Positions 5,039-42,618 are shown, numbered from the stretch's first letter. The stretch: 64,000 nt of DNA from a virus (IMGVR_UViG_3300035501_001483), one strand, 5' to 3'. A program made the numbers and translations. The notes: generated by a model from the letters alone, not told the origin.

Positions 5039-5060
5039 AGTCATTCAAGGAATGACTGTT
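5039..5060 (+). repeat. Cassette hairpin, copy 1 (AGTCATTC-AAG-GAATGACT-GTT)
   Basis: One of four covarying copies (5039+, 35681-, 41989+, 63975+). Confidence 0.9.
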
Positions 5061-5152
5061 TTTCAGAGTTAAAAGAATGACCCGAATCGGAAATCAAGCG
5101 CGCTAAACTGACTCAGATCAAGCTTTCAACCCAAAAAGCCCAAAGCCGAAAA

Positions 5153-5180
5153 CTGCGTAAATTTTTAAGCGGGTTTACCA
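5153..5180 (+). repeat. 28-bp direct repeat CTGCGTAAATTTTTAAGCGGGTTTACCA
   Basis: Identical copy at 42079-42106. Confidence 0.9.
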
Positions 5181-5252
5181 AGTATGGGAGTAAGGGCGCG
5201 TCGTGGTGTTAGGACAGACATCGACCAAACCACCACGGCGAAATCATGAATT

Positions 5253-5672
5253 ATGGCAAATGCTTTTATAATGCAAAGTGCGGCATTCTCTGACAAATAT
5301 CGAATCAGCACACAGACCGTAACCAACACTGATAGCACAATGAAAACACTAACATTCACGGCACCATTTACGCCATATGGATTTACAGTTACACACTTAC
5401 CAAAAGCCACTACCACAGGAGCTAATGGATTAGGAGCTAGGATTTATTTTATTCAATGGATAAATGGTTCGTTCACCTACGAAATGGGAGTTATAGGTGA
5501 CGATTATAATGATCGAATGAAATGGTCTGTATGGACCGATTGTCTTACGCTTACGCATTCTAATCTTAAGTATACAATTACAGTGTCATCTGGCGCGCAA
5601 TTTATATACGGCCAAGGCAATGTCTCATACTATGGCAATATCGGTCATTATCTAGTTACAGTATGGGGCTAA
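5253..5672 (+). CDS. Cassette ORF 1: small Ser/Thr/Tyr/Gly-rich beta-strand protein, putative adhesin or fibre tip
   Basis: 139 aa; A/T-ending codons unlike flanking genes; no SD; downstream of the hairpin leader. Confidence 0.6.
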   Translation: MANAFIMQSAAFSDKYRISTQTVTNTDSTMKTLTFTAPFTPYGFTVTHLPKATTTGANGLGARIYFIQWINGSFTYEMGVIGDDYNDRMKWSVWTDCLTLTHSNLKYTITVSSGAQFIYGQGNVSYYGNIGHYLVTVWG

Positions 5673-5674
5673 AT

Positions 5675-5709
5675 AAAGACTACTACCTCAATGAGGTAGT
5701 AGTCTTTTT
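5675..5709. terminator. Bidirectional terminator (CTACTACC family)
   Basis: aaagactactacctc-aat-gaggtagtagtcttttt between convergent genes. Confidence 0.85.
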
Positions 5710-5713
5710 GATC

Positions 5714-6586
5714 TTAGAAAGAACGCATGAAGTCCGCAATGTCGCCACGCAGAGAACGCTCCACAGGCACAAAGATCCGGCCTTCATTCAGGGTCTTGAC
5801 GCTATACATGCCGTCTGTGGTCACCGTAGCGGATTCCATAGCAGGCTGCAGACCGTCAATGACACGTTTGGCCGCTTCAGACTTGGCCAGAATATACTCA
5901 GAGAAGCTCTCCATGGCCGTGTCAAACTCGGCTTTCTTGACGATGTTCTTCACAGGGATGCTGACGTTCTGATAGGCCTCTTCGCAGGAAGGACCATGGA
6001 CACGATCGAAGCACACCATACGACCAGGACCCGTCACGTCGATAGATCCGTCAGGATTACGACGCTGCGGCACCATGGTACGAGCAGAATGTGCAGGGAC
6101 AATGCCCTGAATCATGTTCATCATCAGGCGATTGCCGGGCGTGCCTTCACCCTGGTCCAGGGTCTCCACAGTGCCCATCATCTTATCACCGTCCCACCAC
6201 CACTCTTTGAGCAGGATGGCCAGGTTGTTGGGATCGATGGTTACCAAGCGCTCCATGGTCACCTGGGCAGTATCGGGAATGGGATGGCCGTTCTCACCGG
6301 GCAGGCCGCCAGCACGATGCAGCTGTTCTTCAATGTGAGGAGCACGCATCATGATAGCCACGATCTGCTTGGTCCACAGCCGTCTATTACGATTACGCTT
6401 ACCAACGGTCATCATACACCCCTGGTAGCGCAGAAAAGACAGATCACCGTTGGGTCTTTTGCCTTCACCAGTGATCTTGAAACTTGCATTACGGTCGCCA
6501 GCTTCCACGGCGGACTCCAGCACCGCATAGAAATCATAGTAATCGGAAGAAGGCATAAGAATCACACCAACTTTCATGAATTTCAA
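5714..6586 (-). CDS. Prohead maturation protease (T4 gp21-like)
   Basis: RNRNRRLW and GENGHP motifs (cf. NRNGRxY, GELGHP); HSAR serine motif; internal AMES sites. Confidence 0.85.
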   Translation of the reverse strand: MKFMKVGVILMPSSDYYDFYAVLESAVEAGDRNASFKITGEGKRPNGDLSFLRYQGCMMTVGKRNRNRRLWTKQIVAIMMRAPHIEEQLHRAGGLPGENGHPIPDTAQVTMERLVTIDPNNLAILLKEWWWDGDKMMGTVETLDQGEGTPGNRLMMNMIQGIVPAHSARTMVPQRRNPDGSIDVTGPGRMVCFDRVHGPSCEEAYQNVSIPVKNIVKKAEFDTAMESFSEYILAKSEAAKRVIDGLQPAMESATVTTDGMYSVKTLNEGRIFVPVERSLRGDIADFMRSF

Positions 6587-6587
6587 G

Positions 6588-6637
6588 TTACTTCAATGTT
6601 AAAAGCCCAGCAAAATGGCCCACGAACACCTGTATAA
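6588..6637. promoter_or_regulatory. Divergent pair of late promoters AACA-N6-TAA
   Basis: Minus 6588-6600 AACA TTGAAG TAA; plus 6625-6637 AACA CCTGTA TAA. Confidence 0.8.
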
Positions 6638-6651
6638 TCCTGGCAGGAGCC

Positions 6652-8616
6652 ATGAATCTGCCCATAAAGGTAGGTGAACTCGAACCTATGGCTTCTCGTG
6701 TAACCATGATTGATCGCTGCCAGAAAATCAAAGAGTGTACTTCCGTCTCGGAGTTGGGTGCTACCATCAAGCTGTATCCCGACATCATTCTGAGCAAGGA
6801 TGGCTATGCGACCTTGATGGCAACGATCCCCGATATTATCCATTCTAGCAACGCTATCTATCTGAACTTCAACTTCATCAGCGCCATTGTGGATACCCAT
6901 CGCAGACACACCAAAGGCATGCTGAGCGATGAGAAGTTCGTAGACACACTCTATTCACAAGATGGCTGGTCCACGCCTGACTATGCCCTGGATATCCTGT
7001 ATTACTACATCAGAACGATGGTGGAATACACCAAGGGTATGTGCTTGGAACGGACCAACCTCATGGTAGAGTATCCCTTCAACGATCCCCACTTTGATGA
7101 ACGGTGCGTTAGCCCGTTGCAATATGTGGGATTCATCATGCTGCTCGCCAAGTGGGAACCCAATGAGCCCATCACCAAAGCAGTCCACAACTTCGTGGTC
7201 TGTGGATTCAGCAACAGGGATCTCATCCAGGCCTTCCTTGAAGTTCTGGGTGAATCCGTTGGCACTCCCAAATGCGACGCACAGGCAGCCTACTACATCT
7301 CCAAGCTTTGGTCCAAGTACTGTGGCTCCAAAGATCACAATTGGATGACAATGGGCGAGTTTGTGTATCGCTGCAGTGAGAAAGATATTGGCTGGCTTGT
7401 AGAGCATAGCAATGAAGTGACAGAAGAGGGCGCGGAGATGCACGCGCATGACCTCGAAGCTTGTACGGATCTCTTCATGGTGCTGAGCAACGTTTTCACC
7501 AATCCATTCATGAGAGAGAACTACTTCTTCGAGTATATCGCCATGATCTCGTACTACTATCCGCTGTCTGTCCAACGTCATAACATTGCTGAGAAGTATT
7601 CATACTACTTCAAGGATCATACCATGATCTACATGGCCGATTTCACCAATGAAATTCTGCAGGCCTTCTCGAAAGAGCAAGTGTCCTACAGAGGAACTCA
7701 TTTTGAGGATAAGATGGTGGAGCATAGTATCCATACCAAAGCTGAGGCCATTATCCTTGACATGCACCGTGAATATCCCGATGTCCCTGCTCGGGTCATC
7801 GAGAATTTTTTCGATGCAACGTGTCACGCCTTTGGCCGAGGTTTCAATGGAGCTGCTCCTGGTGTGATGCTTCTGATTTCTCCCATGATCTACGAGATTA
7901 TTGGAGAAGATAAGAAGACGCTGGAATCCGATCTGGACTGTTTCGGGCTCTTCCAAGCGCTTGAAAGCAGTTATGGAGACGATCCCATGCCACAAACGAC
8001 CGGCACCAACACAGAAGCTGCCGATGATCGCACCTACGAGCCGTCTACCCATGAAAGAGCCAATGTCAAGTCTGGTGCGACTGCCAATATGAAGGATGCC
8101 GAACGGAAGATCTACAATGCTTACCATAAATACAAGAATGGCGAGCAGAAGGTCGATGAAACGCTCAATAAAGGCATCGGTGTTCTAAAGAAGGCTGTCG
8201 TGGGCGATCAGCAGCAGATCATCATTGAGGGGAAGAAATTCTCGGCGATTGGATTCCTGAAGAAAGCTTTGGCAACCATCGCCATTTTCAACTATAATAA
8301 GATTGCAGCCATCCTATTCATCATCGTCTCCCAGGTCATGAAGAAAAAGACCAGGAGATCCGAAAAGCGTAAAATCTTGGAGGAGCTCGAGGCTGAACTC
8401 ACCATGGTCAATGAGAAGATTGAGGATGCACGGGGTGACGGCAATAGAGAGGCCAAGTATGACCTCATGAGAACGCGCAATGCGTTACAGAATGCTATCA
8501 AACGAATCAAGTACGGCATGGGCGCTGAAGAGAAGGAAGGCCTCAAAGATGCAGAGCGCATTAAGAGCAGCCTTCAGCAGCAACGAACCAATGCAGCGTC
8601 CAGTTATAGTGGGTGA
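6652..8616 (+). CDS. Putative head/internal virion protein
   Basis: Lies between the protease and MCP; ALES motif; C-terminal hydrophobic plus coiled-coil domain. Confidence 0.6.
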   Translation: MNLPIKVGELEPMASRVTMIDRCQKIKECTSVSELGATIKLYPDIILSKDGYATLMATIPDIIHSSNAIYLNFNFISAIVDTHRRHTKGMLSDEKFVDTLYSQDGWSTPDYALDILYYYIRTMVEYTKGMCLERTNLMVEYPFNDPHFDERCVSPLQYVGFIMLLAKWEPNEPITKAVHNFVVCGFSNRDLIQAFLEVLGESVGTPKCDAQAAYYISKLWSKYCGSKDHNWMTMGEFVYRCSEKDIGWLVEHSNEVTEEGAEMHAHDLEACTDLFMVLSNVFTNPFMRENYFFEYIAMISYYYPLSVQRHNIAEKYSYYFKDHTMIYMADFTNEILQAFSKEQVSYRGTHFEDKMVEHSIHTKAEAIILDMHREYPDVPARVIENFFDATCHAFGRGFNGAAPGVMLLISPMIYEIIGEDKKTLESDLDCFGLFQALESSYGDDPMPQTTGTNTEAADDRTYEPSTHERANVKSGATANMKDAERKIYNAYHKYKNGEQKVDETLNKGIGVLKKAVVGDQQQIIIEGKKFSAIGFLKKALATIAIFNYNKIAAILFIIVSQVMKKKTRRSEKRKILEELEAELTMVNEKIEDARGDGNREAKYDLMRTRNALQNAIKRIKYGMGAEEKEGLKDAERIKSSLQQQRTNAASSYSG

Positions 8617-9341
8617 CAACTATGAAGATTGGCGAAACCCTCTATCGCAGAAACATCTTCAATGAGCTGGTGGCCATGGAGGCCGGCGAGCCCGAGGATA
8701 TCACTGCAACTACCGATGATATGATGAAGAGAGCTGGCGGCGCCAACGCCGATACCGGCGAAATGAACCCCTCTCGCACTTCCGAAGAAACACAGCAAGC
8801 CAACGGCGGAAACGTCGATAGAGACGCCATGTCCGGCAATACCGATGGACTCAATCCCGACCCCAATGCGGGCGGGACTGATGACACTGGCATGGGTGAC
8901 ATGGATGATCTTGGCGGCGGTGGAGATATGGGAGGCGAAGGTGGTGGAGATATGGGTGGCGGCATGGAGCCCCAAGAGGACCAAGCACCTCCCGAATCTC
9001 CAGAGCAAGCCGAGCAGATTCTCAAACTTCAAAAGAATATGACTACCTTCTACCGTATCCTCAGCAATACGCTGGATACGTTGAACGGGTATAGTGCACC
9101 GGCAACTACGCCGGAACTGCGTAAGATCTACAATGCCGGCGTCAGTCATCTGACCAGCGCTAAGGAAATGATGACAGACCTGGTGTCTACCGATATTACG
9201 TCAGCCAATTACCCGGATAAGCTCCGTAAATACATCACCCTGCGCCATGTATATAGTGCCGTGGTGGAAATGCTTACGCTGCACTTCCAAGTCCTGGAGG
9301 AAGGCCAATCTGGCTCATCCAAAACAGGGTCTGGAAAATGA
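8613..9341 (+). CDS. Putative scaffold/head protein (acidic, Gly-rich linker)
   Basis: AMEA motif; low-complexity GGGGDM repeats; directly upstream of MCP. Confidence 0.6.
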   Translation: MTTMKIGETLYRRNIFNELVAMEAGEPEDITATTDDMMKRAGGANADTGEMNPSRTSEETQQANGGNVDRDAMSGNTDGLNPDPNAGGTDDTGMGDMDDLGGGGDMGGEGGGDMGGGMEPQEDQAPPESPEQAEQILKLQKNMTTFYRILSNTLDTLNGYSAPATTPELRKIYNAGVSHLTSAKEMMTDLVSTDITSANYPDKLRKYITLRHVYSAVVEMLTLHFQVLEEGQSGSSKTGSGK

Positions 9342-9347
9342 TGCAAA

Positions 9348-9496
9348 AACATATCGTTAAATATCCCATTGACTCGTGGATATTACTCGGATTTATAAGG
9401 ATGATTTTCTCTTTTCTGTTAGACGCTGGAGTTTGACGATGGATATCTAAGGCTCGCTTAGACATCGGTAAATCCCGGCATTTAACAACCGACTAA
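9348..9496 (+). promoter_or_regulatory. Tandem late promoters of MCP
   Basis: AACA TATCGT TAA (9348-9360) and AACA ACCGAC TAA (9484-9496). Confidence 0.75.
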
Positions 9497-9587
9497 CCCT
9501 GTATATCATCAGAAGACGTGAAAGTTCGACCCTTGACCTGGCGCTATCACGTTTTGCTGTTGAGCAATAAAAGGAGGTAACTACCTT

Positions 9588-11792
9588 ATGACCGGATTCA
9601 ACGGTTATGTGCCGCCCGTGGGTGATACCCAGGTTGCCGGCAACGACTACGCGTCCGATAGTTCTATGGGCTTCAAGGCTGAAGTGGCTTCCGTGCTGGA
9701 AAGCTATCAGTCTCGCGGCACCAGCGTGAGCGATCTGATGCAGCAGGTCATGTTTAACCCCACTGCCCGGGAGCAGTTCCTGGACAACGTGATGGAGTCT
9801 GTCACCGCTTCTCCCATCTTCACCGATGTGGAGTGCGTCAACAGCCGTTTCTATGATAACTATGCCGACCGTCTGCGCCAGCTGGAGGACAACTCCATGA
9901 AGCAGGTGGCCATCGAGTCCATCGTGACCGGCTACAGCCCCATCGTGGCTTACAACCCCTTCTTCCTGAAGAAGCAGTGGATCAGCACTGTGTTTAAGGA
10001 CATCCTGATGACCGAGGTTCCCGCCTCTCCCGTCATCAACTATGCCGTTGAGCAGCGTTTCCTGCGCACTCAGGACGGCGTCGAGTATCCCATTCCCGAC
10101 GTCTACTATGATCCCAATATTACCCGCAGCCTGAGCGCTGCGTGCACCGGCGCTGCCATCAAGGAGGAGCCCATCCCCCTGACCGACCTGCGCGGCCTGT
10201 CCCTGATCGACCCCACCTACATTCCTGGCATTCTGAAGAATGACCCGGCCGTGGAGCTGACTCAGGATATCAGCATCTGCGCGGTGACCCTGTCTGATGG
10301 CACCGTGGTTCCCACCAACATTCGCACCGACGTCACCACCCATCAGTGGGTCCATGGCAACATCGAGTACAAGCGTACCGATGCTTATGGCAACGTGACT
10401 GAGGTGATCAAGGACATGCTGTTTGGCGGCGTGGACTTCGTGACCGGCAAGGTCACCGTCATGTCTCAGGAAGGCAATGTGACCGCAGTGACCCTGCGTG
10501 GCAAGATTGCCAACCGCTGGAATGATCGGTCTATCACCACCGTGCGGCGCGTTGAGCAGATTCAGTTCGTGATGCCTGAGTCTGGCCAGCGCCTGAACAC
10601 CCCCATCACCCTCGAGGACGCTGCCGACGCTCTGGTGACCCAGAACATCGACATCATCGCCGATAATGTGGATATGATGGGCCGCACCCTGGCCGAGTTC
10701 GAGGACTTCGAGATCCGTGACTTCCTGGATGCTTCCTGGGATGCCCAGGCCAACGCCGGCTCCATGGGCGTGTCCTTCCTGGACAGCAACAGCCTGATCG
10801 TTCGCGGTCACTTCGACGCTGTGCCCTATGAGTCCTTCACCAACAACATCACCGACTGGATGCGCGACTCTCGTGAGTACTTCGAGCGTGTCCTGGCCGG
10901 CCTGAAGACCAAGCTCAAGACCCCTGATGCTGTCATCATCTGCTATGCGCATCCCAACCTGGTGCGTTTCCTGCAGAACGGCATCAACTGGGTGTTTTCT
11001 GACGATACCCAGATCTCCGGCATGAAGATCAGCTACAACTTCGGTATCTATACTTCTGCCCAGGATCGTGTGCATATCGTCACCTCCATGTACGTGCCTG
11101 AGGATTCCGGCCTCCACTTCGTGGTGATTCCCACCACCAAGGAGCTGATCACCTACAAGCACTTCAAGTACAACGCGGTGATCGACCGCAACTATCGTGA
11201 TCCCGTGCATCCCCTGACCCCCAACGTCATGGTGACTCAGCGCACCCTGACCTGCGAGGTTCTGCCCGTTCAGGGCCGGATGACCATCACCGGTCGCGAT
11301 GCTTACAGCCCCACCACGCTGAAGCGCGTTCTGCCTTCTGATACGGTCAGCGCCATCCTGGGCGTGTCCGTGTCCGACGCTGGCGTCATCACTTCTGCTA
11401 TGAAGGGTGAGTCCGGCTATGTGGTGACCGCTTCTGGTACGGCTGCTGCCGGCTCTGCCACCATCGATGCCAGCCTGTTTGGCGCCCTGGAAGGCAATGC
11501 TGTTCAGCTGACTGTCCAACTGCCCGGCGTCACCAACGGTGGTTCTTACGTTGTCAAGCAGTACAATGCTGCTCTGGCCAACTTCTCCACCGATCCTTCC
11601 ATCAAGCAGGTCGGTTCTGACTGGGTCAAGACCAAGACCTACGCTGGCAAGGATATCCTGGACGGCTATGCTCTGCTGCTGGTGGAAGGTGCCGATGCAA
11701 TCGTGCAGATCTTCCCGGCCGCTGGCTACATCGACGGCGCTTCTCAGCCCATGGCGACCCTGACCGTGAAGAACGGCGTCGTTTTCGGTTGA
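9588..11792 (+). CDS. Major capsid protein precursor with C-terminal decoration domain
   Basis: 734 aa; extreme codon bias; AAGGAGG RBS; prodomain with VLES/VMES/AIES sites; head-gene context. Confidence 0.85.
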   Translation: MTGFNGYVPPVGDTQVAGNDYASDSSMGFKAEVASVLESYQSRGTSVSDLMQQVMFNPTAREQFLDNVMESVTASPIFTDVECVNSRFYDNYADRLRQLEDNSMKQVAIESIVTGYSPIVAYNPFFLKKQWISTVFKDILMTEVPASPVINYAVEQRFLRTQDGVEYPIPDVYYDPNITRSLSAACTGAAIKEEPIPLTDLRGLSLIDPTYIPGILKNDPAVELTQDISICAVTLSDGTVVPTNIRTDVTTHQWVHGNIEYKRTDAYGNVTEVIKDMLFGGVDFVTGKVTVMSQEGNVTAVTLRGKIANRWNDRSITTVRRVEQIQFVMPESGQRLNTPITLEDAADALVTQNIDIIADNVDMMGRTLAEFEDFEIRDFLDASWDAQANAGSMGVSFLDSNSLIVRGHFDAVPYESFTNNITDWMRDSREYFERVLAGLKTKLKTPDAVIICYAHPNLVRFLQNGINWVFSDDTQISGMKISYNFGIYTSAQDRVHIVTSMYVPEDSGLHFVVIPTTKELITYKHFKYNAVIDRNYRDPVHPLTPNVMVTQRTLTCEVLPVQGRMTITGRDAYSPTTLKRVLPSDTVSAILGVSVSDAGVITSAMKGESGYVVTASGTAAAGSATIDASLFGALEGNAVQLTVQLPGVTNGGSYVVKQYNAALANFSTDPSIKQVGSDWVKTKTYAGKDILDGYALLLVEGADAIVQIFPAAGYIDGASQPMATLTVKNGVVFG

Positions 11793-11911
11793 AGCGAGAG
11801 CGTTGCAGCACTTCGTACTGAAGATGGCATAGACATCTACACATCTGATGGTGCGGAACTGCACGCAAAGGATGGCGGCACTGTCGTGCCCAAGGATTAA
11901 GTATGAAGCCA

Positions 11912-11947
11912 AAAGAGACTACTACCAGAAATGGTAGTAGTCTCTTT
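11912..11947. terminator. Bidirectional terminator (CTACTACC family)
   Basis: aagagactactacca-gaaa-tggtagtagtctcttt. Confidence 0.85.
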
Positions 11948-11951
11948 CCTG

Positions 11952-12305: not shown

Positions 12306-12432
12306 GTCGGTTTCTTCCTTTCAAAAATATGTGGGCTTGCTATAAATTTTACATTAAATAAAAGTCGTCAAACTGGATTTACATCAAAAAAAGAAGATTC
12401 TCCACATTGGAAGAATCTTCTTTTTCGCATCT

Positions 12433-12657: not shown

Positions 12658-12668
12658 GATAAACCTCC

Positions 12669-15433: not shown

Positions 15434-18348
15434 ATGGCTGATGTAGTAAATCGAAGTAGAACCTACGATGTGATGGAAATCGACCCATATGCTCCCATGC
15501 TTTATGACGATACATATGGGGACCATGATGAAACCGTTATATCTTCGAGATTCCACTCCGATCAAGGCGGCGCTTCTCCAGCGTTGGAAGACGATATCGA
15601 TTCGTTACGCACCGCTGCACAATCCACCTTCGCCAAGAGAAAGCCCATCATTGACTGGAAGACCACCAATCAATCCTTCATCGATGTGCATAACGACTTG
15701 CGAAGGCTTGGCATCAAAAATAACACGTTCTTCCTCAAGCTTTATGATAGAGATCTCCAAGGCGTCGATCCTTTTATGCCAAACCTGCCTCTGGAGATGC
15801 AAATCAAGGTCTATGTGGAGTGCGTTGTCAATCCTTGGTACTATCTAAGAGAGATTGCTAGATGCCCCGCTCAAGGTAAACCCATCGAGCCAGGCGGTGG
15901 TGATCGTTATGTACTGGATCGTAATAACCTTGCGACCTGGTATCTGTACCTGAACCATATTGACAACTATGCATCCAAGCCTCGTCAGACTGGCAAGACC
16001 CAGGATGCGCTCCACAAGGTAAACTATGCGTATCACTTCGGCTCTACTTCATCATCGGCACTACTCTTTAACAAGGACTTGGCCCTGTCCAAGGAGAACC
16101 TTGCTCGTATGAAGGACCAGCGGGATCTATATCCCACATACCTTCAGATGAGAGTGGCATTTGATGAAGAGACCGGCGGCATCATCAAGGGCGCAGACAA
16201 CATCACCACGATGAAGAATCCTGTGACCAATAATACCATCAAGGTGATGCCATGTGCAACCTCCAAGGAAGCAGCGGACCGGCTGGGACGTGGTTATACC
16301 GCCCCCATCTTGCTCTACGATGAGGTTGACTGGGAACAGCACGCCATCACTGTTATGATGGCATCCGTGTTCGCATACTCCACCGCTTCCAAGAATGCAA
16401 TCGATAACCACAGTATGTCATGCAGACTTCTGCTGTCGACTCCTAAACTACCACTGGGAGTCTGAGCCAGTAATGGCTCTAAGAAAATACCTCTTTAATT
16501 GCGGGAAACTCTCGCTAGGCTCAGATTACGAAGCTTATCTAGTGATGGATAAGTTGCAATGGGTAATGCCAAAGGTATCGTAATAAAATCTGAGATAGAG
16601 ACAATCCGCAGCCAATGATCTCGATCGAGATAAAGGTTCATCGACTATCGAAAGGAGATTGATAACTAGAAATACTATCATGAGAACTGAGTAGAGTAGG
16701 CTTCGGCCCAAATAGGAGGCTCCAAGTATCCTGGTTACAGGGATCTTGGATGAAGATATAGTCAGGCTTATGGGAGACCATAAGGTTAGAAATTACGGGT
16801 GATTTATCTACCAGAGACGGTAAAGCCATGAATGATTACATTCGTGGCACAAAAGAGCAGCGTGGCATGATGATCTGGAATGATCGTATGCTAGATGACC
16901 CTATATCGGCATTGAAAGCAGAAGCTCAGTCTACCAAATACAACGGCATTGTCTATGTCGAGCATACTTGGCAGCAGCTGAAGCGCTCTATGGAATGGTA
17001 TGAGCGTCAGTGCAACCTCTGCGGTTATAACCAGGAAGTTATCCTTCGGGAAATCAACCTGCAGAGATTGGCCGGTTCTAGCTTATGCCCCTTCACCAGA
17101 GAGCAGCAGCTGTATCTTTCTACTCATATCCATAAGCCCGTGGAAGAGATCGACGTACGCTCCAAGGATACCATGTCAACCATTAATATCTACGAGAAGT
17201 TTGATCGTCGAATTCCCTACATCATCGGCATTGACCCGGCTGAAGGTCTGAGTGAAGATAATAACGCCATGATCGTGATCAATCCCTTCACATACAAGAT
17301 TGCAGCTGAGTATAAATGCCCCTACATCTCTCCCAAGGAGTTTGCAAAGCTTATCACTGGTTTTATGGACCAGAGATGCCCTCATGCATTACTGGTCGTG
17401 GAGAGTAACCGAGGCCGTGACCTCATTCAGCGTCTGACAGATTCTCATTATGCCAGCAGAGTCTGGTATGATAAGGATCGCATGAACCAGATTCTCACGG
17501 AAAAGACCGATAGATATGGTGGTATTCCACAGTCTGTGCTGGCTCGTAAAGTGCAGGGATTCGTCACTGGGCCTAAGAGCCGCAATCTGCTCTTCAGTTG
17601 TCTGGAGCAGATGGTCATGGAGAATATCGACTGTATATTCTCCAAGAACCTGGTCAATGAGATGCTGACGCTTATCAGAAAACCCACCACTGGTAAGATC
17701 GAGGCCGCTCCTGGAGAGCATGACGACTGTGTCATGGCGTATCTGATTGGGCTCTATGTCTATCTTAATGCGTCCAATCTTGGAGAGTATGGTATTAGCC
17801 GCCATATGAGACGGCCTGATGAGAAGGTCGAGAAGACCGTCGAATCAGAGAGGCAGTATCGAGACCGTGTGAAAGCAGCCATCAATGTCCTGCCTGAGCA
17901 GTATCGCGGCATCTTTGAGGACTTTGTGCGGGAACGTGATCCTATCACGGATGCCCATCAATATGCCAAAGACCTCAGGAAGGCGGAACGAGATGACCCC
18001 TTTAATCAGTTGAAGATGACTCGTCATCGGACCATGGAAGTGGACGAAGATCAAATCTCACTGGATAAATACATGGGTCGAGATGGAACCCAGAAAGTTC
18101 CCGAGCCCAAAGTTGGCATGGAGTATTTCAAGATGGGCGAAACTCTGCAGACACCTCATTACAATTACGGCAGAAGAGACGATGCGTTGTATATTGGAGA
18201 TGAACCTGACGACACTCTCGGGGAAGAAGAACGTTTCACCTTCGAGCAGGGTATTCTGGATATGAATAGGCCACATGAAGATGAATATGGTTATCCTTCT
18301 TACGAAGATGACGATGGGTTTACCTTCGATCCCAACGATTATGCCTAA
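15434..18348 (+). CDS. terL: Terminase large subunit, two exons (15434-16444 and 16798-18348; 853 aa spliced)
   Basis: Walker A KPRQTGKT, Walker B LLYDE; the spliced junction restores STP|GDLST; nuclease motifs IGIDPAEG and HDDCVMA. Confidence 0.93.
16445..16797 (+). mobile_element. Group I intron without ORF (353 nt)
   Basis: P1 GACTCCT/GGGAGTC with U.G pair; AATTGCGGGAA, AATCCGCAGC, GTTCATCGACTA, AAGATATAGTC; terminal G16797; in-frame ligation. Confidence 0.93.
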
Positions 18349-30878: not shown

Positions 30879-30914
30879 GAGAAGGCTACTACCAGAGATG
30901 GTAGTAGCCTTCTC
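30879..30914. terminator. Terminator (CTACTACC family)
   Basis: gagaaggctactacca-gaga-tggtagtagccttctc. Confidence 0.75.
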
Positions 30915-35013: not shown

Positions 35014-35018
35014 GGCCT

Positions 35019-35057
35019 TAAGAGACTACTACCGTGAGGTAGTAGTCTCTTTTTTTT
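35019..35057. terminator. Bidirectional terminator (CTACTACC family)
   Basis: aagagactactacc-gtga-ggtagtagtctcttttt. Confidence 0.85.
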
Positions 35058-35476
35058 TATTTCAGAAATGCGATCGCGATTGGATAGCCGCTCGTTGATA
35101 ATTCATATACCGTTGATCCTGAAGATCCTTGCGAATTATAATATAATCCATATAGTGTGATCTGTGTGCCGCTATATATTCCACATATGGATAAATTGCC
35201 ACTCACACCAACCCCATATGAGATGGTTGCGGTTGGTAACGTTGTAATGCATGGGAAAATTACATAGTCGCCAGCTGTTCTAATCGCTGTAATAAGCGCA
35301 GTTCTTATTGTAGATGATGCAGATATTGATGATATGGATGTCCATGTGACTCCGCTACTCAATGAGTTCTTTAAAGTTACGCCAGATGATGGAACTAATG
35401 AGTAGATCTCGCATGCCTGTCCACCTGTTGCAGCAACTGCTTGTAAATAGCTTTGAATAGTTAATCCATCTGCCAT
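35057..35476 (-). CDS. Cassette ORF 2: small Ser/Thr/Gly-rich protein, putative adhesin or fibre tip
   Basis: 139 aa; A/T-ending codons; no SD; hairpin leader. Confidence 0.6.
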   Translation of the reverse strand: MADGLTIQSYLQAVAATGGQACEIYSLVPSSGVTLKNSLSSGVTWTSISSISASSTIRTALITAIRTAGDYVIFPCITTLPTATISYGVGVSGNLSICGIYSGTQITLYGLYYNSQGSSGSTVYELSTSGYPIAIAFLK

Positions 35477-35659
35477 GATTTGTAAATTTGGCGCGGGCTT
35501 CCCGCGCCAGCTTCGTGTCTTTATATCTTATCGACTCTTCGTCAAATGCAATTCCGGGACTTCCAACACCACGCACTAAGCAGCAATTATCCCCGGATTC
35601 GGTCTTTCGCCAGGCCGTTGCATCCAACTTTAAGCGTCTAAGATATGGTTTTAAGCTTG

Positions 35660-35681
35660 AACAGTCGATCCTTGATCGACT
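35660..35681 (-). repeat. Cassette hairpin, copy 2 (AGTCGATC-AAG-GATCGACT-GTT)
   Basis: Compensatory stem changes relative to copies 1 and 3. Confidence 0.9.
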
Positions 35682-35721
35682 CAAACGAGCAAAAAAAAGA
35701 TGCCGCGAGGGCATCTTCTTT

Positions 35722-36600: not shown

Positions 36601-36636
36601 TCAATCACGTCCTTTCTTCATATCAATGATATTTGA

Positions 36637-37781: not shown

Positions 37782-37783
37782 GG

Positions 37784-38125
37784 TCAGTTCTCCTTTCGCA
37801 TTTTCTCTAATTCGTACTGGGCTCGTTGCTGTTTCTGGTCAAGAGCCCGATAATATTCAAGGTCCCTGTGTAGGGTCACGGACGCATTATCAACGTCCTT
37901 TCTGGAGTGCCATTCCCTCTCAGACACCAGCAAACATAGGCGTTCCAGGATGCGATATTTGAAACTTTGATTGCGGATCTCTTTTTGAATATCGAAGACA
38001 TCCTGAATCATTTGGCCAATTCCCTTCACGATATATCGCCAGTCATCTTCTGTCAATGGCTCATACTTGGGTGCTGCCGGGACCTCGAAAAGATCGAGGT
38101 CCCAGTATTTGTCATTATTGGGCAT
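37784..38125 (-). CDS. Hypothetical protein
   Basis: GAGGAG RBS. Confidence 0.65.
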   Translation of the reverse strand: MPNNDKYWDLDLFEVPAAPKYEPLTEDDWRYIVKGIGQMIQDVFDIQKEIRNQSFKYRILERLCLLVSEREWHSRKDVDNASVTLHRDLEYYRALDQKQQRAQYELEKMRKEN

Positions 38126-38143
38126 CTGGGCTAAGCTCCTCTC

Positions 38144-38707
38144 TTACGAGAAGTCATCAATGTGCTCCTCAATGTGAGCGAAAATTTGATCGGTAGTGGG
38201 GAGTTTCATGAAGATCTCCATCATCGCCCACCAATGCTTTCCAGTATAGCACTCCATGAAGAAGTCATTGGCATTCATTTTATACTCACGCTGCTCATTC
38301 TTATCGATGAACTGAATTTGGTACTTGGGAATGTCAATGTGCTCCTTGAAGAAGAGCTTACCCACAAACGTCTTGGGAGACAGATTCTGGATAAGCATGA
38401 TGGACGGATACAGAGAAGTCAAGTCCATATCGATCACAAAGTTGTGGATATGCTGCATGAGAGCACCAGCGATATTGAAGCCGGACTGCTTCTGCCGACG
38501 AGGCTCTGCCACATAGGCGCCATCATAGGCTTTGACCCGGCGTCTACCAGTGCCCGTTTTGGTAACGCCATCAGTTTTACTCGCTGTCTTGAAGCGATCG
38601 ATCTTGGTCCGGGTACGACTCATGTGGTTCATACCCGGATTTCTGATGACGTCTAAGCGGGAGCGATAATCTTTTTGCTTCCCGTTGTTATCTTGAATAT
38701 AAGCCAT
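38144..38707 (-). CDS. Family B DNA polymerase fragment (palm motif A)
   Basis: YDGAYVAEP and DMDLTSLYPSIMLIQNLSPKT; own AGGAGG RBS. Confidence 0.88.
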   Translation of the reverse strand: MAYIQDNNGKQKDYRSRLDVIRNPGMNHMSRTRTKIDRFKTASKTDGVTKTGTGRRRVKAYDGAYVAEPRRQKQSGFNIAGALMQHIHNFVIDMDLTSLYPSIMLIQNLSPKTFVGKLFFKEHIDIPKYQIQFIDKNEQREYKMNANDFFMECYTGKHWWAMMEIFMKLPTTDQIFAHIEEHIDDFS

Positions 38708-38710
38708 GAG

Positions 38711-39007
38711 TTAACCTCCTTGGCCCATCAGCTCCGCGCCCATCTCGATACGACCAGCAACTTCCTGGAGCTGCTCAATCTCTTCGGCATCCAGACCATC
38801 GGCACCCAGAATCTGCTGAGCTAAGCTTGAATACTTCTGCTCAACGGTCTCCAGCTGTGCCTTGTCCATGCCGCGAATGGTCGCAAAGATGTCACAAAGC
38901 GCATCGATGATCTTGCGCTTTGCCATTCCGTTGATGTTGCGGGACTGGATGATCAGATTGCTGTAGCCAATGACCTTGGCCGCACATACAAATTGATCAC
39001 TGTTCAT
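38711..39007 (-). CDS. Hypothetical protein
   Basis: AAGGAG RBS. Confidence 0.65.
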   Translation of the reverse strand: MNSDQFVCAAKVIGYSNLIIQSRNINGMAKRKIIDALCDIFATIRGMDKAQLETVEQKYSSLAQQILGADGLDAEEIEQLQEVAGRIEMGAELMGQGG

Positions 39008-39022
39008 ATGCGTTCTCTCCTT

Positions 39023-39139
39023 TCACTTATTGCCGAAATTCTCCTTGATCGTCCAGACCAAGGCCCGGAGCAGATCAACGATCAGACTGACTGTGAGATA
39101 GATCGGAATCAGCTCCAGAAGATACAGAAACACTTTCAT
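39023..39139 (-). CDS. Small membrane peptide (38 aa)
   Basis: MKVFLYLLELIPIYLTVSLIVDLLRALVWTIKENFGNK fills the gap between genes. Confidence 0.45.
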   Translation of the reverse strand: MKVFLYLLELIPIYLTVSLIVDLLRALVWTIKENFGNK

Positions 39140-39156
39140 TACGATGCTACGTGTCA

Positions 39157-40659
39157 TTAGAAATCACCGCCTTCCTCAAAGCCGCCTTCAATGAGACTGT
39201 CGGCTTCATCATAGGCATCCACGTCGTCGGGATCGGCCAGCAGTGCCTCTTGCGACATCAGGTCGAACTCCTCATGGGCCGCCTTATCATCGATGAACTT
39301 TCGATAATCAAAGGGCGCCATGATACGGTTGGCGTTGGTGCCCAAAATGAATCCCTCCTTGAAGAAATACTTGGTCAATGAAGTGGTCAACATCGTGGTG
39401 GACACAAACGCTTCAGGAATCAGCATACCGTGGTCGTAGCATCTATCGTATACGGCGTCAATGTCACCAGTGGTTCTACCAATGCCTTTCTGCAGAAGAA
39501 CGTCCTTGATATTGTACATGAAGTACTTCCAGAGGTTCTTATACATAAAGGTCTTGATGTTGCCTTCCTCTTCATAGTTGAGCTTCTCATCACGCAATTC
39601 CTTCTTGGCGATGGCGTTCAACTTCATGGAAGGCAGTTTGCCGGCACCAGATCGCACGCCTGCATACATCCACATCTGACACATGATCAGTGGCTTGATA
39701 GAGATGACGCAGCGATGGTTCCGCTTATGGACTTGGATGTTGTCGTCCTCTTCAAAGAAGCAGGTCTTATACTTGAAGGCCGGGTCACAGATGATGGCTT
39801 CAGGCTCATAGCCCAATGCCAAAGGCCGTTCGATGAGGTTCCGGACATCATATGGAGCGTTCCACGCCATCAAATAATCCAGATTGGATCTTCTGATGAG
39901 CTCCCAGAAGACCTGATGTAACTTGATCTCATCGTCAAATAAGATCAGATGATACGTCATCTCTCCATAGTATTCATCGAAGTTGGCATGACACTCTGCG
40001 ATGAACTCGTCCATGTGGTTCTTCAGGTAGTCCACTTGCTCATAGAAGTGCGCTTTGACTTCCTGTGTCTTTCCATAGTTGGGATTGGTCTCTGCCAAGA
40101 TCGGCAGGTTGTCTTTGCACAGACCCAAGGTATACACGGTGTTCTTGGAATCGTCAATGAACGTGATGGCCGACGTCGGGGCCTCACCAGGAGCAGCAAA
40201 GCCATCGGCCTGAATGATATCAGATTCGATATCGAAGTATCCCACGTTGATGGGCTTGGGCAAGTCATTACCATACTCCAAAAGGAACTGAATCCAATAC
40301 CAATGCTCGATTTTGATGTCATATCCAAATAAGAGCGGGGAATACTTGACATCATCGGGAGAGCACCCGAGAATATGGGCAATGTCGCGATCTCTATAGT
40401 GATAAGAAACGACATGCTTATCGAGATTCTCCACCGATTCCCAGCAATCGATATACTGGGCTCTCGGCCAGAACTCTTTCTTGAGAATATAAATCTCATA
40501 GCAGGGGTGGTCGATCGTCTCAATGTAGGTCTGTCCTGTCACAATGTCCTTGAAAGTGATTGCGATGGCATCCCGAGCGCCCAACTCAAAGCAGTCGTAA
40601 GATACGATATGAATGGGCATGAGACTTCGACCCTCAAATCGAGGATCTAAAAATTTCAT
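39157..40659 (-). CDS. Family B DNA polymerase, N-terminal/3'-5' exonuclease subunit
   Basis: ExoI FDIESD, ExoII AWNAPYD, ExoIII YNIKDV. Confidence 0.9.
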   Translation of the reverse strand: MKFLDPRFEGRSLMPIHIVSYDCFELGARDAIAITFKDIVTGQTYIETIDHPCYEIYILKKEFWPRAQYIDCWESVENLDKHVVSYHYRDRDIAHILGCSPDDVKYSPLLFGYDIKIEHWYWIQFLLEYGNDLPKPINVGYFDIESDIIQADGFAAPGEAPTSAITFIDDSKNTVYTLGLCKDNLPILAETNPNYGKTQEVKAHFYEQVDYLKNHMDEFIAECHANFDEYYGEMTYHLILFDDEIKLHQVFWELIRRSNLDYLMAWNAPYDVRNLIERPLALGYEPEAIICDPAFKYKTCFFEEDDNIQVHKRNHRCVISIKPLIMCQMWMYAGVRSGAGKLPSMKLNAIAKKELRDEKLNYEEEGNIKTFMYKNLWKYFMYNIKDVLLQKGIGRTTGDIDAVYDRCYDHGMLIPEAFVSTTMLTTSLTKYFFKEGFILGTNANRIMAPFDYRKFIDDKAAHEEFDLMSQEALLADPDDVDAYDEADSLIEGGFEEGGDF

Positions 40660-40816
40660 AGGTTGATTTTCCTCTCCTTCCCTCCGGTAGTCGGGTTTAC
40701 CACACATGTTAAGGGGTGCATAGCGTCTTAGAGACCAGAGAATTGTGGACCCTTCACAATCCCTTAATCTCAAGGAGATGATATACGCTCCATTTTAATT
40801 GAAAGGAGAATGAACC

Positions 40817-41935
40817 ATGGCTCCTAGAAAGAAAGATGTACAGCATCCTGCGCAGTCTAGCTTCAGCAGCTTACTGTCGCAGTTTGTGGGGCAGAACGAG
40901 GGGCTCTCCACCTTCAATGATGCTGCCACTGGCCTTTCCATCAGTCCAGCAATGCTGCATGAGACGGAAAAGCCAGCCAAGAAGAAACCTTCTGCCAAGA
41001 AAGGCAGTTATGATGATATTCTGCTGGATGATGAAAAGCCGCTGGGTGATCTGGACGATATCGGATCACTTCTTCCCGATGACGATGACTACGATGAGAG
41101 CTTTGATACCCTGATTGAAAATGCTTTCATGGAAGATGAAGACGTCACTATGCGCAATAACCTCATTCGCATGGGACGAAAGTACGCTGTCAAGGGTATG
41201 GAAGAGGCCACCGAATCTTCCGAGGTAAACCGTGCTTTCATCAAGCAAGAACAGGCGTTGGAAGCTTTGATGGATGAGATGGACGCTGGTGCTGCCGCGC
41301 TGGATCGCGATATTGAGCAGCTTCGCATGTCTCGTACCAAGAGCTTCAAGGCGCTATCTGATATGGCAGCTGTCCGTGCTTCTCTCTATAATAGCAAGCT
41401 GAGTGTCATCAAAGAGATGAGCAACATCACCAAGACCAAGTACGATATCAATATCAAGCTCAAGAAGGATTCTAACGCCGAATCGGCTGACACAGGTATG
41501 GCAGCTACCCAAGCTGTCCAGCGCTTGCTGTCCATCGGACGCCAGAACCTCATGGCTGGTGAAGAGGAGTACGTGTCGATGGGCGATTCGCCTGCCGACG
41601 CGCACTTTGATGATGGGCGCGCCGAGACGGCATTACATCTGGCCGCTGATATCCCTCCTGCCGAAACCGATGGAGATAAATTCATTGAGCATGAGGGAGA
41701 GGGCGTGGAATACGTCGTGGACATCAATTCCGAGGACGACTCCAAGATGATTTACGCTGTCAATAAAGATGGCAAGATCGTCGAGGATTATCCCATGCCC
41801 AGCAATCAAGATCAGCTGTCTTTCTCTTTGAATGAATTGGCCGGTGAAGCAACCGATCAGCTGCAGCGCCGGTACAGACTACGGAGAGATGGTCAAGATG
41901 TACTACCTCGTGGATTTGGCGAAGACGAACTTTGA
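40817..41935 (+). CDS. Late acidic coiled-coil protein
   Basis: CACA-N6-TAA at 40755-40767; AAGGAG RBS. Confidence 0.7.
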   Translation: MAPRKKDVQHPAQSSFSSLLSQFVGQNEGLSTFNDAATGLSISPAMLHETEKPAKKKPSAKKGSYDDILLDDEKPLGDLDDIGSLLPDDDDYDESFDTLIENAFMEDEDVTMRNNLIRMGRKYAVKGMEEATESSEVNRAFIKQEQALEALMDEMDAGAAALDRDIEQLRMSRTKSFKALSDMAAVRASLYNSKLSVIKEMSNITKTKYDINIKLKKDSNAESADTGMAATQAVQRLLSIGRQNLMAGEEEYVSMGDSPADAHFDDGRAETALHLAADIPPAETDGDKFIEHEGEGVEYVVDINSEDDSKMIYAVNKDGKIVEDYPMPSNQDQLSFSLNELAGEATDQLQRRYRLRRDGQDVLPRGFGEDEL

Positions 41936-41949
41936 TCCCTGAGATGCCT

Positions 41950-41986
41950 AAGAGCACCTACCTAGAAGACTAGGTAGGTGCTCTTT
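41950..41986 (+). terminator. Intrinsic terminator
   Basis: aagagcacctacctag-aaga-ctaggtaggtgctcttt. Confidence 0.85.
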
Positions 41987-41988
41987 GA

Positions 41989-42010
41989 AGTCATTCAAGG
42001 AATGACTGTT
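41989..42010 (+). repeat. Cassette hairpin, copy 3
   Basis: AGTCATTCAAGGAATGACTGTT, identical to copy 1. Confidence 0.9.
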
Positions 42011-42078
42011 TTCAGATTAAGCTTTTCAAATTTGGCCTTACAATCCCGAGTTTTCAAGGCGATTTTTAGGCTCGGAAT

Positions 42079-42106
42079 CTGCGTAAATTTTTAAGCGGGT
42101 TTACCA
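42079..42106 (+). repeat. 28-bp direct repeat, copy 2
   Basis: Identical to 5153-5180. Confidence 0.9.
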
Positions 42107-42147
42107 GACGGGACGGCGCACTCCGTGCGCCATTCTTTAGCACTTAA

Positions 42148-42618
42148 ATGGGTGCATGTGTTGGATTACAAACGGGTATCGCCGGCGCTGGGCTCAAATT
42201 ATCACAAACTCTAAAATACAACACGACTGCACAATCGTCCATATCGGCTTGGCAAAGCATTACAATACAATCATTTGCATTTAATTCGTACTCATTTGCA
42301 TTTGCTCAAATATCGTTCCCAGCAATCACAGTTACGAAAGCATCTTGCGAATTTTATAAAGCAGCAACTCTCACATATCGTGAATGGATTAAATCTGATA
42401 TTGGAACTGTGTATATCAGCTACACTTCTAGTGGCGTAGACATAATCTCTAACAGTTCCTTTACAATCTCGGCTTTAAATCAAATTCTTCCATATAGTTC
42501 AACGTATACGTATGGAATATCTGTAACACTCAGCAGTACAACGACAGTCGGAAGCTCGGCGTATATAACCTTTTCAATGCCGAGTGTGACATGCACCGTC
42601 AATATGTACAGCATCTAG
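42148..42618 (+). CDS. Cassette ORF 3: small Ser/Thr-rich beta protein, putative adhesin or fibre tip
   Basis: 156 aa; A/T-ending codons; no SD; hairpin leader. Confidence 0.6.
   Translation: MGACVGLQTGIAGAGLKLSQTLKYNTTAQSSISAWQSITIQSFAFNSYSFAFAQISFPAITVTKASCEFYKAATLTYREWIKSDIGTVYISYTSSGVDIISNSSFTISALNQILPYSSTYTYGISVTLSSTTTVGSSAYITFSMPSVTCTVNMYSI

What the first reader, a model, noticed from the sequence alone, without database searches (positions are those of the whole stretch)
5039..42618. Dispersed, hairpin-tagged cassettes of divergent adhesin-like genes: candidate receptor-binding variation system
Seen: three complete units (5039-5672 +, 35681-35057 -, 41989-42618 +) and the start of a fourth (63975 +) share one architecture. 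Each has a conserved hairpin, then a 160-215 nt leader with shared blocks, then a GC-rich stem-loop, then a 139-156 aa ORF, then a terminator shared with a convergent core gene. The ORFs (MANAFIMQS.., MADGLTIQS.., MGACVGLQT..) share only an N-terminal M-(A/G)-x5-Q-(S/T) pattern. They are Ser/Thr/Tyr/Gly-rich and use A/T-ending codons unlike all neighbouring genes. None has an SD or either phage promoter motif, whereas nearly all other genes have an SD. Inference: a genome-wide archive of interchangeable fibre-tip/adhesin genes. They may be silent donors copied or recombined into an expression site (pilS/pilE-like), or be switched on selectively through the leader. I know of no description of this in jumbo phages.
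Basis: partly seen in the sequence, partly recalled or inferred. Interest (0 to 1): 0.92.

Follow-up and report, generated by a model that had tools for sequence, protein, structure and literature searches.

The report
Hairpin-tagged hypervariable phage gene cassettes
An uncultured giant phage and its relatives carry many small self-contained genes. Each sits behind the same covarying DNA/RNA hairpin, lacks a normal ribosome-binding site, and encodes a fast-evolving uncharged beta-sheet protein with a shared N-terminal tag; gene finders mostly miss them and their job is still unknown.

Summary
Four copies of an 8-bp, AAG-triloop hairpin followed by GTT lie in the window (0 of 100 shuffles reach four). 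Each heads a unit of leader, stable stem-loop, SD-less ATG and a 112-156 aa ORF with GC3 0.30-0.36, against 0.50-0.72 for neighbouring genes. A fifth unit lies just outside the window.

Relatives with 77-84% identical DNA polymerase carry the same units, in different numbers. Downstream of the polymerase gene the window has 1 unit, and three relatives have 1, 9 and 18. A 176-kb relative has at least 16.

Across 37 hairpins there are 19 different stems. All interior pairs are Watson-Crick, and positions 5-7 change with full compensation.

The proteins are real. Their N-terminal tag is conserved at the protein level while synonymous sites are saturated, and one subfamily folds as a beta-sandwich (pLDDT 81). 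No known fold matches convincingly.

My reading: these are portable, independently expressed accessory-gene cassettes in hyperplastic loci, comparable to the PeSL modules of T4-type phages. They probably encode tag-docked surface-type modules. A silent pilS-like archive is not supported. The nearby reverse transcriptase belongs to a separate, canonical DGR. The hairpin's mechanism is unresolved. The scan had already noted these cassettes in an overlapping window of this genome.

The parts
5039..5060 (+). Unit 1, H1: 8-bp stem, AAG triloop, GTT tail
5061..5252 (+). Unit 1 leader. It holds the 28-nt block shared with unit 3 (about 5153-5180) and stem-loop H3 (about 5199-5240), followed by a 12-nt AU-rich spacer with no SD.
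   Evidence: no sigma-70-like site on this strand
5253..5672 (+). Unit 1 ORF, 139 aa (P0001), GC3 0.33, 11% charged residues
5675..5707 (.). Bidirectional CTACTACC..GGTAGTAG terminator closing unit 1
35660..35681 (-). Unit 2, H1. It lies directly after the terminator of the upstream same-strand gene (35697-35717).
35477..35659 (-). Unit 2 leader. Its first ~100 nt are nearly identical to the unit 4 leader. H3 lies at 35509-35489, followed by a 12-nt spacer with no SD.
35057..35476 (-). Unit 2 ORF, 139 aa (P0002), GC3 0.30, 6% charged residues
35020..35051 (.). Bidirectional CTACTACC-type terminator closing unit 2
41989..42010 (+). Unit 3, H1. It starts 3 nt after the upstream gene's terminator.
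42011..42147 (+). Unit 3 leader. It holds the shared 28-nt block (about 42079-42106) and H3 (42115-42131), followed by a 16-nt spacer with no SD.
42148..42618 (+). Unit 3 ORF, 156 aa (P0003), GC3 0.36, 6% charged residues
42624..42655 (.). Terminator shared with the convergent DNA-polymerase gene (42661-44415 -). In the 84% relative, sequence homology resumes exactly here.
63975..64000 (+). Unit 4, H1 and the start of its leader. The rest lies beyond the window: the 112-aa ORF P0005 at window-equivalent 64178-64516, read from L015:9057-9395(-).

Best explanation
These are self-contained, portable accessory-gene cassettes that populate hyperplastic loci of one clade of uncultured jumbo phages. 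Each unit has three parts. (1) A 5' control module: H1, a hairpin with a strictly Watson-Crick 8-bp stem, an AAG triloop and a GTT tail. Some lineages add a structured leader and a very stable RNA stem-loop, H3, often with a UUCG-type loop. An AU-rich spacer of 10-25 nt follows, then an ATG with no Shine-Dalgarno sequence. (2) One gene from a fast-diverging superfamily of small (75-160 aa), nearly uncharged, Ser/Thr/Tyr/Gly-rich all-beta proteins that keep a short N-terminal tag. (3) For dispersed copies, a strong bidirectional terminator. Shown: the architecture; its clade-wide conservation; hairpin covariation; copy-number change at a conserved locus; mosaic leaders; protein-level selection on the tag. 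Inferred: (a) each unit is expressed on its own, with H1 marking the transcription unit's 5' boundary, most likely as a hairpin-type promoter or start signal for phage machinery, and translation is SD-independent on the AU-rich spacer; (b) units duplicate and are swapped by recombination through the conserved 5' modules and terminators, as with PeSL modules of T4-type phages; (c) the proteins are interchangeable surface-type modules, on the virion or binding a cell surface, which dock through the conserved N-terminal tag and display a variable beta-sandwich. My confidence is about 0.8 that the units are real, expressed, shuffled cassettes, about 0.4 for a surface or adhesin-type role, and about 0.4 for H1 acting as a DNA-level promoter.
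For: Architecture and significance. Same design in relatives: L018 (84% polymerase identity) has one cassette at the same locus with an unrelated ORF, and homology resumes exactly at the stop codon and terminator. L017 (79%) has 9 plus 3 tandem units, each with H1, a leader that folds with z -3.8 to -7, and H3. L146 (77%) has 18 units in 7.2 kb; seventeen have H1 only about 23 nt before the ATG and none has an SD. G001 (79%, 176 kb) has at least 16 cassette-type genes, in clusters and as singles. L019 (64%) has one compact unit. H1 census: 37 copies, 19 distinct stems, 149 Watson-Crick pairs and 2 G.T pairs (both in the outermost position); positions 3-4 are invariant and positions 5-7 covary. 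The genes code for proteins: in the first 25 codons pN is 0-0.29 while pS is 0.33-1.0, and bodies have dN/dS of about 0.3-0.6. AlphaFold2 on 9 paralogues gives pLDDT 80.6 and pTM 0.72, an all-beta sandwich with a low-confidence N-terminal tag. Mosaic leaders and shared blocks. Surface-type character: 5-15% charged residues; the best structural neighbours, all weak, are a tailspike C-terminus, the monocin side fibre, a jumbo-phage capsid domain, phage K gp144 and the T7 gp17 tip (Z 4.3-5.3); BFVD gives a tail fibre at E 0.012. Precedents in the literature: PeSL modules sit upstream of ORFans in hyperplastic regions, including around the DNA polymerase gene (PMC2839356); N4 early promoters are DNA hairpins with a 3-nt loop in which conserved and freely covarying stem positions coexist (PMC4496689).
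Against: No fold match reaches a convincing level: Foldseek finds nothing at E<=1e-3, VIA Z is at most 5.3, and atlas TM is below 0.5. The window's own five proteins cannot be tied to the modelled subfamily by sequence, and the one single-sequence model was unusable. A missing SD is unusual for abundant structural proteins in a phage whose other genes have strong SDs. For sense transcription the template-strand loop would be CTT, unlike the purine loop of N4, and the phage's known polymerases are multisubunit. In the window H1 lies 140-215 nt from the ATG but only about 23 nt away in L146, so a single fixed role relative to the start codon is not obvious. In G001, H1 is often replaced by small GTAAG-loop hairpins.
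Confidence: 0.5

Rival explanations
1. The cassettes are early host-takeover, anti-defence or superinfection-exclusion genes. H1 would be the early-class promoter, read for example by the injected virion RNA polymerase. The small orphan proteins would act inside or on the infected cell and would not be virion parts.
For: The genes are small, AT-shifted and fast-evolving, each with its own start signal and often in arrays. This is the typical profile of early ORFan blocks such as the PeSL regions of T4-type phages. H1 is distinct from anything seen in front of SD-bearing genes. The N4 precedent links hairpin promoters to injected polymerases and early genes.
Against: A charged-residue content of 5-15% with a Ser/Thr/Tyr/Gly-rich beta-sandwich is unusual for soluble cytoplasmic effectors. 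A single conserved N-terminal tag across dozens of otherwise unrelated bodies suggests a common docking or targeting step. The weak fold neighbours are virion parts.
Confidence: 0.25
2. H1 acts in RNA, not DNA. It would be an operator or processing site recognised by a phage protein or nuclease. That factor would cut polycistronic array transcripts into single mRNAs, leaving the hairpin as a 3' stabiliser, or would recruit ribosomes to SD-less starts. Dispersed copies would be reached by terminator read-through or from promoters inside the long leaders.
For: H1 is strand-specific (AAG loop, GTT tail) and its covariation pattern resembles protein-bound RNA hairpins. In L146 it sits about 23 nt before each ATG, between tightly packed genes with little room for separate promoters. 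H3 carries UUCG-type loops, which are typical of RNA-level structure. In the window the 28-nt invariant leader block could hold the real promoter.
Against: There are no interior G.U pairs in 19 distinct stems; RNA helices usually tolerate some. In three of five window-phage units H1 starts 2-4 nt after a strong terminator. In unit 1 it follows a divergent gene, so an upstream transcript that includes H1 is hard to account for.
Confidence: 0.35
3. One reading: the units are silent donor cassettes, and one at a time is copied into an expression site (pilS/pilE-like) to change the fibre tip.
For: There are many dispersed, divergent copies without recognisable SDs or standard promoters. The phage invests in receptor variation in another way, through a DGR.
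Against: The units are complete genes with start codons and a selected N-terminal tag. The bodies share no homology to guide conversion. Each gene in the arrays has its own 5' module. No expression locus was found in about 77 kb. Three independent assemblies of this phage are identical over the compared regions, which cover units 4 and 5.
Confidence: 0.04
4. H1 and the shared terminators are primarily recombination or mobility sites, for example hairpin-recognising HUH or integrase-type machinery. The units would then be actively mobile elements.
For: The strictly Watson-Crick hairpin sits at the unit boundary, as expected of a folded-DNA site. The cassette at a fixed locus has been replaced between relatives, with breakpoints at the unit edges. 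Copy number at that locus varies 1/1/9/18.
Against: No transposase, HUH or integrase gene was seen among Pfam-annotated neighbours in the fetched loci. The hairpin is at the 5' end only. General homologous recombination through 20-100 nt of shared sequence is sufficient, as shown for PeSLs.
Confidence: 0.1

Closest known systems
PeSL (promoter-early stem-loop) mobile regulatory cassettes in hyperplastic regions of T4-type phages (Arbiol et al. 2010, PMC2839356; PMC4122927)
   Same: Both are repeated composite intergenic motifs placed directly after the previous gene's stop codon or terminator and directly upstream of small orphan genes. Both concentrate in plastic loci, including next to the DNA polymerase gene. 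Both have mosaic, recombining modules. Closely related phages differ by insertion, deletion or replacement of units.
   Different: PeSLs contain a sigma-70 -35/-10 promoter and end in an SD. Here no sigma-70-like site lies in the leaders and no SD is present. The constant element is instead a covarying triloop hairpin plus GTT, often followed by a long structured leader. PeSL cargo genes are unrelated ORFans, whereas these cargos share a tag, a composition and probably a fold.
Hairpin early promoters of coliphage N4 virion RNA polymerase (PMC4496689)
   Same: Both have a short stem with a 3-nt loop, conserved and freely covarying stem positions, conserved bases just 3' of the stem, and a position at the head of transcription units.
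   Different: N4 has a 5-7 bp stem with a purine loop on the template strand. Here the stem is 8 bp and the template strand for sense transcription would carry CTT. N4 uses a giant single-subunit polymerase, whereas this phage's recognisable polymerase genes are multisubunit and AR9/PBS1-like at 22% identity. No functional data exist here.
Conserved N-terminal tags on polymorphic phage proteins: the T4 capsid-targeting sequence of internal proteins, and N-terminal anchor peptides of multiple receptor-binding proteins (my knowledge; similar tagged arrays in other jumbo phages appear in earlier scan notes e1-161172 and e1-163363)
   Same: A short N-terminal peptide is kept under selection while the bodies diverge beyond recognition. 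There are many paralogues per genome.
   Different: The tag sequence is unrelated. No protease site, partner or virion location is known. The bodies are much smaller (75-160 aa).
Diversity-generating retroelement (BPP-1 Mtd type)
   Same: The same phage carries one, 3.4 kb from unit 5, so it does diversify a probable binding protein.
   Different: The DGR acts on one 395-aa gene through TR/VR adenine mutagenesis. The cassettes have no TR homology and vary by divergence, duplication and replacement.

Membership tests
PeSL-type mobile regulatory cassette | Repeated intergenic motif immediately upstream of orphan genes, concentrated in hyperplastic loci | tested here: met
   All H1 copies head cassette ORFs: 4 of 4 in the window and 17 of 18 in L146. 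The locus downstream of the polymerase gene holds 1/1/9/18 units.
PeSL-type mobile regulatory cassette | Contains a sigma-70-like -35/-10 early promoter | tested here: not met
   The consensus scan finds no sense-strand site in the leaders of units 1-3.
PeSL-type mobile regulatory cassette | Ends in a Shine-Dalgarno sequence before the start codon | tested here: not met
   No SD precedes any cassette ATG, while neighbouring genes have AAAGGAG-type SDs.
PeSL-type mobile regulatory cassette | Modules recombine, giving mosaic junctions and unit replacement between close relatives | tested here: met
   Units 1 and 3 share an identical 28-nt block. Units 2 and 4 share ~100 nt of leader before unrelated ORFs. 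The syntenic cassette is replaced in L018, with the breakpoint at the terminator.
N4-type DNA hairpin promoter | Short stem with a 3-nt loop; conserved plus covarying stem positions | tested here: met
   8-bp stem and AAG loop. Positions 3-4 are invariant and positions 5-7 covary across 19 distinct stems.
N4-type DNA hairpin promoter | Purine-rich loop (-11 A/G, -10 G) on the template strand | tested here: not met
   For sense transcription the template-strand loop is CTT (against PMC4496689).
N4-type DNA hairpin promoter | Transcription starts a fixed few nucleotides 3' of the hairpin, driven by a cognate virion polymerase | not testable with these tools
   No RNA data could be obtained. The whole genome is not held.
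pilS/pilE-type silent cassette archive | Donor copies are partial or promoterless and share conserved segments with a single expression locus | tested here: not met
   The ORFs are complete, with a selected N-terminal tag. There is no similarity between cassette bodies. No master locus was found in about 77 kb.
DGR target gene | A variable repeat matching the template repeat, with mismatches only at TR adenines | tested here: not met
   The only TR/VR pair is in L142: TR 5058-5219 and VR 3667-3828, in a 395-aa gene. The window has no TR-like sequence.
Integron gene cassette | attC hairpin at the 3' end of promoterless ORFs, arrayed next to an integrase | tested here: not met
   The hairpin is at the 5' end. 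No integrase appears among annotated neighbours.
Phage receptor-binding or fibre-tip module | Fold shared with known receptor-binding tip domains | tested here: inconclusive
   The best matches are Z 5.3 (tailspike C-terminus, monocin side fibre) and Z 4.3 (T7 gp17 tip). These lie within the range of common beta-sandwich arrangements. Foldseek finds nothing at E<=1e-3.
Phage receptor-binding or fibre-tip module | Presence in the virion | not testable with these tools
   The phage is uncultured and no proteome is available.

The most novel reading that the evidence does not exclude
H1 is a new class of structure-specific start signal: a DNA hairpin promoter, or a hairpin-dependent translation start that needs no SD. 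A jumbo phage with multisubunit RNA polymerases would use it to run a separate expression channel for a swappable library of tag-docked binding modules. The library is largely invisible to gene callers.
Probability: 0.15. Interest if true: 0.85.

Novelty: new variant of a known kind. Interest (0 to 1): 0.62.

Why it matters
First, it defines a conserved, covarying nucleic-acid element. There are 37 copies and 19 stem variants, and none matches an Rfam family. The element marks a distinct, SD-independent expression class in a large clade of uncultured jumbo phages. Finding what reads it could reveal a new promoter or translation-initiation mode.

Second, the cargo is a large, fast-evolving protein superfamily that standard gene finders skip. 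Only 2 of 18 units were called in L146 and 0 of 2 in L015. It is therefore almost absent from protein databases: 27 hits among 1.84 billion representatives. Jumbo-phage accessory repertoires are probably under-counted as a result.

Third, the same phage combines this cassette system with a DGR. That makes two different ways of generating protein diversity in one genome.

Tried and rejected
- Pfam and PHROGs on the three window ORFs gave nothing.
- tblastn and blastn against 50,697 phage records gave no match for the cassette or for a core gene at DNA level.
- A word-index homologue search with P0004 gave nothing.
- A pattern scan of IMG/VR gave 14 single hits, all unrelated contigs. The leader block has no IMG/VR match.
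Of 120 loci, 8 had a perfect hairpin and only one (L068) was a true cassette. It is therefore not a census.
- Profile comparisons of the modelled subfamily with P0001, P0002 and the five-protein alignment showed no homology.
- The language-model atlas search gave only sub-threshold leads: viral hypotheticals, C1q and the lambda J C-terminal domain.
- The homotrimer prediction for the L017-type protein returned no verdict (score 0.34, mark 0.42). It is not used as evidence either way.
- The single-sequence AlphaFold2 model of P0002 had pLDDT 38 and was unusable.
- The own genome is not held, and ENA/Logan relatives cannot be searched whole.
- A k-mer search for a shared promoter motif in intergenic regions found only SD and terminator words.
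- The idea of a split SD brought close to the ATG by H3 was rejected: no consistent SD-like word lies 5' of H3.
- An AR9-type late promoter (AACA-N6-TW) was rejected: the TGTT word is on the wrong strand for sense transcription.
- A double-glycine leader peptide was rejected: the GG motif is absent from the window proteins.
- DGR targeting of the cassettes was rejected.

Full report
**What the window is.** PHROG hits to tail sheath, terminase, split DNA polymerase, NAD ligase and multisubunit RNA polymerase pieces identify a jumbo myovirus. The RNA polymerase piece matches only AR9/PBS1-type phages, at 22% identity. No deposited phage matches at DNA level. The genome itself is not held. Identical contigs from JGI and Logan assemblies extend the window by about 13 kb.

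The 22-nt pattern occurs four times, where shuffles give 0.06. Relaxing it to 3 mismatches adds no site. Read as RNA or single-stranded DNA, it is an 8-bp stem with an AAG triloop and a GTT tail, and the three middle stem positions change with full compensation. Each copy heads a unit made of:
- a leader of 137-192 nt;
- a GC-rich stem-loop, H3;
- an AU-rich spacer of 12-16 nt with no SD;
- an ORF of 139, 139 or 156 aa.

Cassette GC3 is 0.30-0.36, against 0.50-0.72 for 19 neighbouring genes. Most other genes have strong AAAGGAG-type SDs.

The fourth unit is completed outside the window by a 112-aa ORF. A fifth unit, with a 6-bp GTA-loop variant hairpin and a 159-aa ORF, lies 2.4 kb further on.

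The leaders are mosaic. Units 1, 3 and 5 share the CTGCGTAAATTTTTAAGCGG block. Units 2 and 4 share about 100 nt of leader in front of unrelated ORFs. The closing terminators belong to a CTACTACC..GGTAGTAG type that also ends the capsid gene and the sheath/tube operon.

**The proteins of this phage.** The five proteins have no Pfam or PHROG family and no detectable similarity to one another or to other window proteins. They share an N-terminal M-(A/G)-(D/N)-x-hydrophobic start, 5-11% charged residues and a hydrophobic C-terminal strand.

**Relatives change the picture.** The DNA polymerase piece next to unit 3 has more than 400 metagenomic homologues, on contigs of up to 280 kb.

| Relative | Polymerase identity | What is found |
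|---|---|---|
| L018 | 84% | One cassette at the same locus, with H1 (AGTCAAGT-AAG-ACTTGACT) and a stem-loop before an SD-less ATG. The ORF is unrelated, and homology resumes exactly at the stop codon and terminator. |
| L017 | 79% | Nine tandem units at that locus and three more beside the MYG1-like gene. Each has its own AAG-triloop hairpin with a different stem, a strongly structured leader (z -3.8 to -7) and a long H3, often with a UUCG-type loop. |
| L146 | 77% | Eighteen units in 7.2 kb. Seventeen have the exact AGTCNNNC-AAG-GNNNGACTGTT element only about 23 nt before the ATG, with no H3. The pipeline called only 2 of the 18 as genes. |
| G001 (IMG/VR, 176 kb) | 79% | At least 16 cassette-type genes, in clusters and as singles. 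H1 is often replaced by small GTAAG-loop hairpins. |
| L019 | 64% | One compact unit. |
| Two complete genomes | 56% and 49% | No H1. |

Across all sources there are 37 H1 copies with 19 distinct stems. They contain 149 Watson-Crick pairs and 2 G.T pairs, both in the outermost position.

**The genes are translated proteins.** In L017 paralogues the first 25 codons have pN of 0-0.29 while pS is 0.33-1.0. One pair has identical tags at dS 0.44. The tag is therefore conserved as a peptide, not as RNA. The bodies evolve at dN/dS of about 0.3-0.6.

An exhaustive profile search finds only 27 relatives among 1.84 billion representatives. AlphaFold2 on nine paralogues gives a confident all-beta sandwich (pLDDT 80.6, pTM 0.72) with a poorly ordered tag.

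No search gives a convincing fold match. The weak top rows are mostly phage tailspike, fibre, baseplate and capsid-decoration domains. A profile of the L146 subfamily ranks the L017 subfamily and P0005 above all 104 decoy ORFs, but only at weak E-values. A common origin for the subfamilies is therefore plausible, not proven.

**Interpretation.** The units behave like the PeSL-flanked ORFan modules of T4-type phages (PMC2839356). Like those, they:
- sit after stops or terminators;
- head small orphan genes;
- cluster in plastic loci, including beside the DNA polymerase gene;
- recombine through their constant parts.

They fail two defining PeSL features. They have no sigma-70 promoter and no SD. 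Their constant element is a covarying triloop hairpin instead.

That form, with conserved and freely compensating stem positions, a 3-nt loop and a conserved 3' flank at the head of each unit, recalls N4 hairpin promoters (PMC4496689). The absence of interior G.U pairs leans towards a DNA-level role. Against this, the loop polarity differs from N4, and the recognisable polymerases here are multisubunit.

An RNA operator or processing role is nearly as likely, especially in the tightly packed arrays. H3, with its UUCG-type loops, is most likely an RNA stabiliser or structure placed ahead of an AU-rich, SD-free initiation region.

The near-uncharged beta-sandwich bodies behind a selected N-terminal tag suggest interchangeable surface-type modules that dock through the tag. 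An early intracellular role is the main rival.

**The silent-archive model is not supported.** The units are complete genes, each with its own 5' module. Their tags are under selection. They share no body homology, and no expression site was seen.

The RT gene near unit 5 belongs to a canonical DGR. Its template repeat and the variable repeat at the 3' end of a 395-aa gene differ at 17-18 positions, all of them adenines in the template. The window contains no template-like sequence.

**Limits.**
- No expression, virion or population data could be obtained.
- The census in this phage covers about 77 kb only.
- The window's own proteins have no usable model.
- The metagenome scan was truncated.

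Noticed in passing
L142:3667-6830 (window-equivalent about 70480-73650, outside the window): A canonical diversity-generating retroelement. The RT gene is at 5460-6830(+), the template repeat at 5058-5219(+) and the variable repeat at 3667-3828, at the 3' end of a 395-aa gene (3673-4860, -). All 17-18 mismatches fall at template adenines. A GC-rich hairpin follows the VR, and a 954-aa gene lies next to it. A 2021 jumbo-phage survey reported no DGR-type targets in jumbo phages (PMC7824862).
   Followed up: partly
L146:11760-19180; L015:6518-7134 and 9057-9598: Gene callers used for the public assemblies skipped almost all cassette ORFs: 2 of 18 were called in L146 and 0 of 2 in L015. This explains why protein-database searches return nothing.
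   Followed up: partly
window 16435-16784 (+): A group I intron (Rfam RF00028, 76.9 bits) lies between two ORFs, one of which matches the large terminase.
   Followed up: no
window 11919-11940 and 30886-30907: The same CTACTACC..GGTAGTAG bidirectional terminator that closes cassettes 1-3 also ends the major capsid gene and the sheath/tube operon. It looks like the phage's standard strong terminator.
   Followed up: partly
L015:1547-1624 (+), between the DGR template repeat and the RT gene: A weak Rfam hit to the RT-18 RNA motif (25.2 bits, E 0.73, below gathering). It may be the DGR spacer RNA.
   Followed up: no
L142:3380-3640 (+): Two UUCG-loop stem-loops sit directly before a small SD-less ORF of about 55 aa, between the 954-aa gene and the DGR target. 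It is cassette-like but has no AAG hairpin.
   Followed up: no
window 61487-61550 (+): A tRNA gene (Rfam RF00005, 49.1 bits).
   Followed up: no
L015:3656-4279 and 5878-6480: Two DUF2262 paralogues flank a NUDIX-like gene between the DGR and cassette 5.
   Followed up: no
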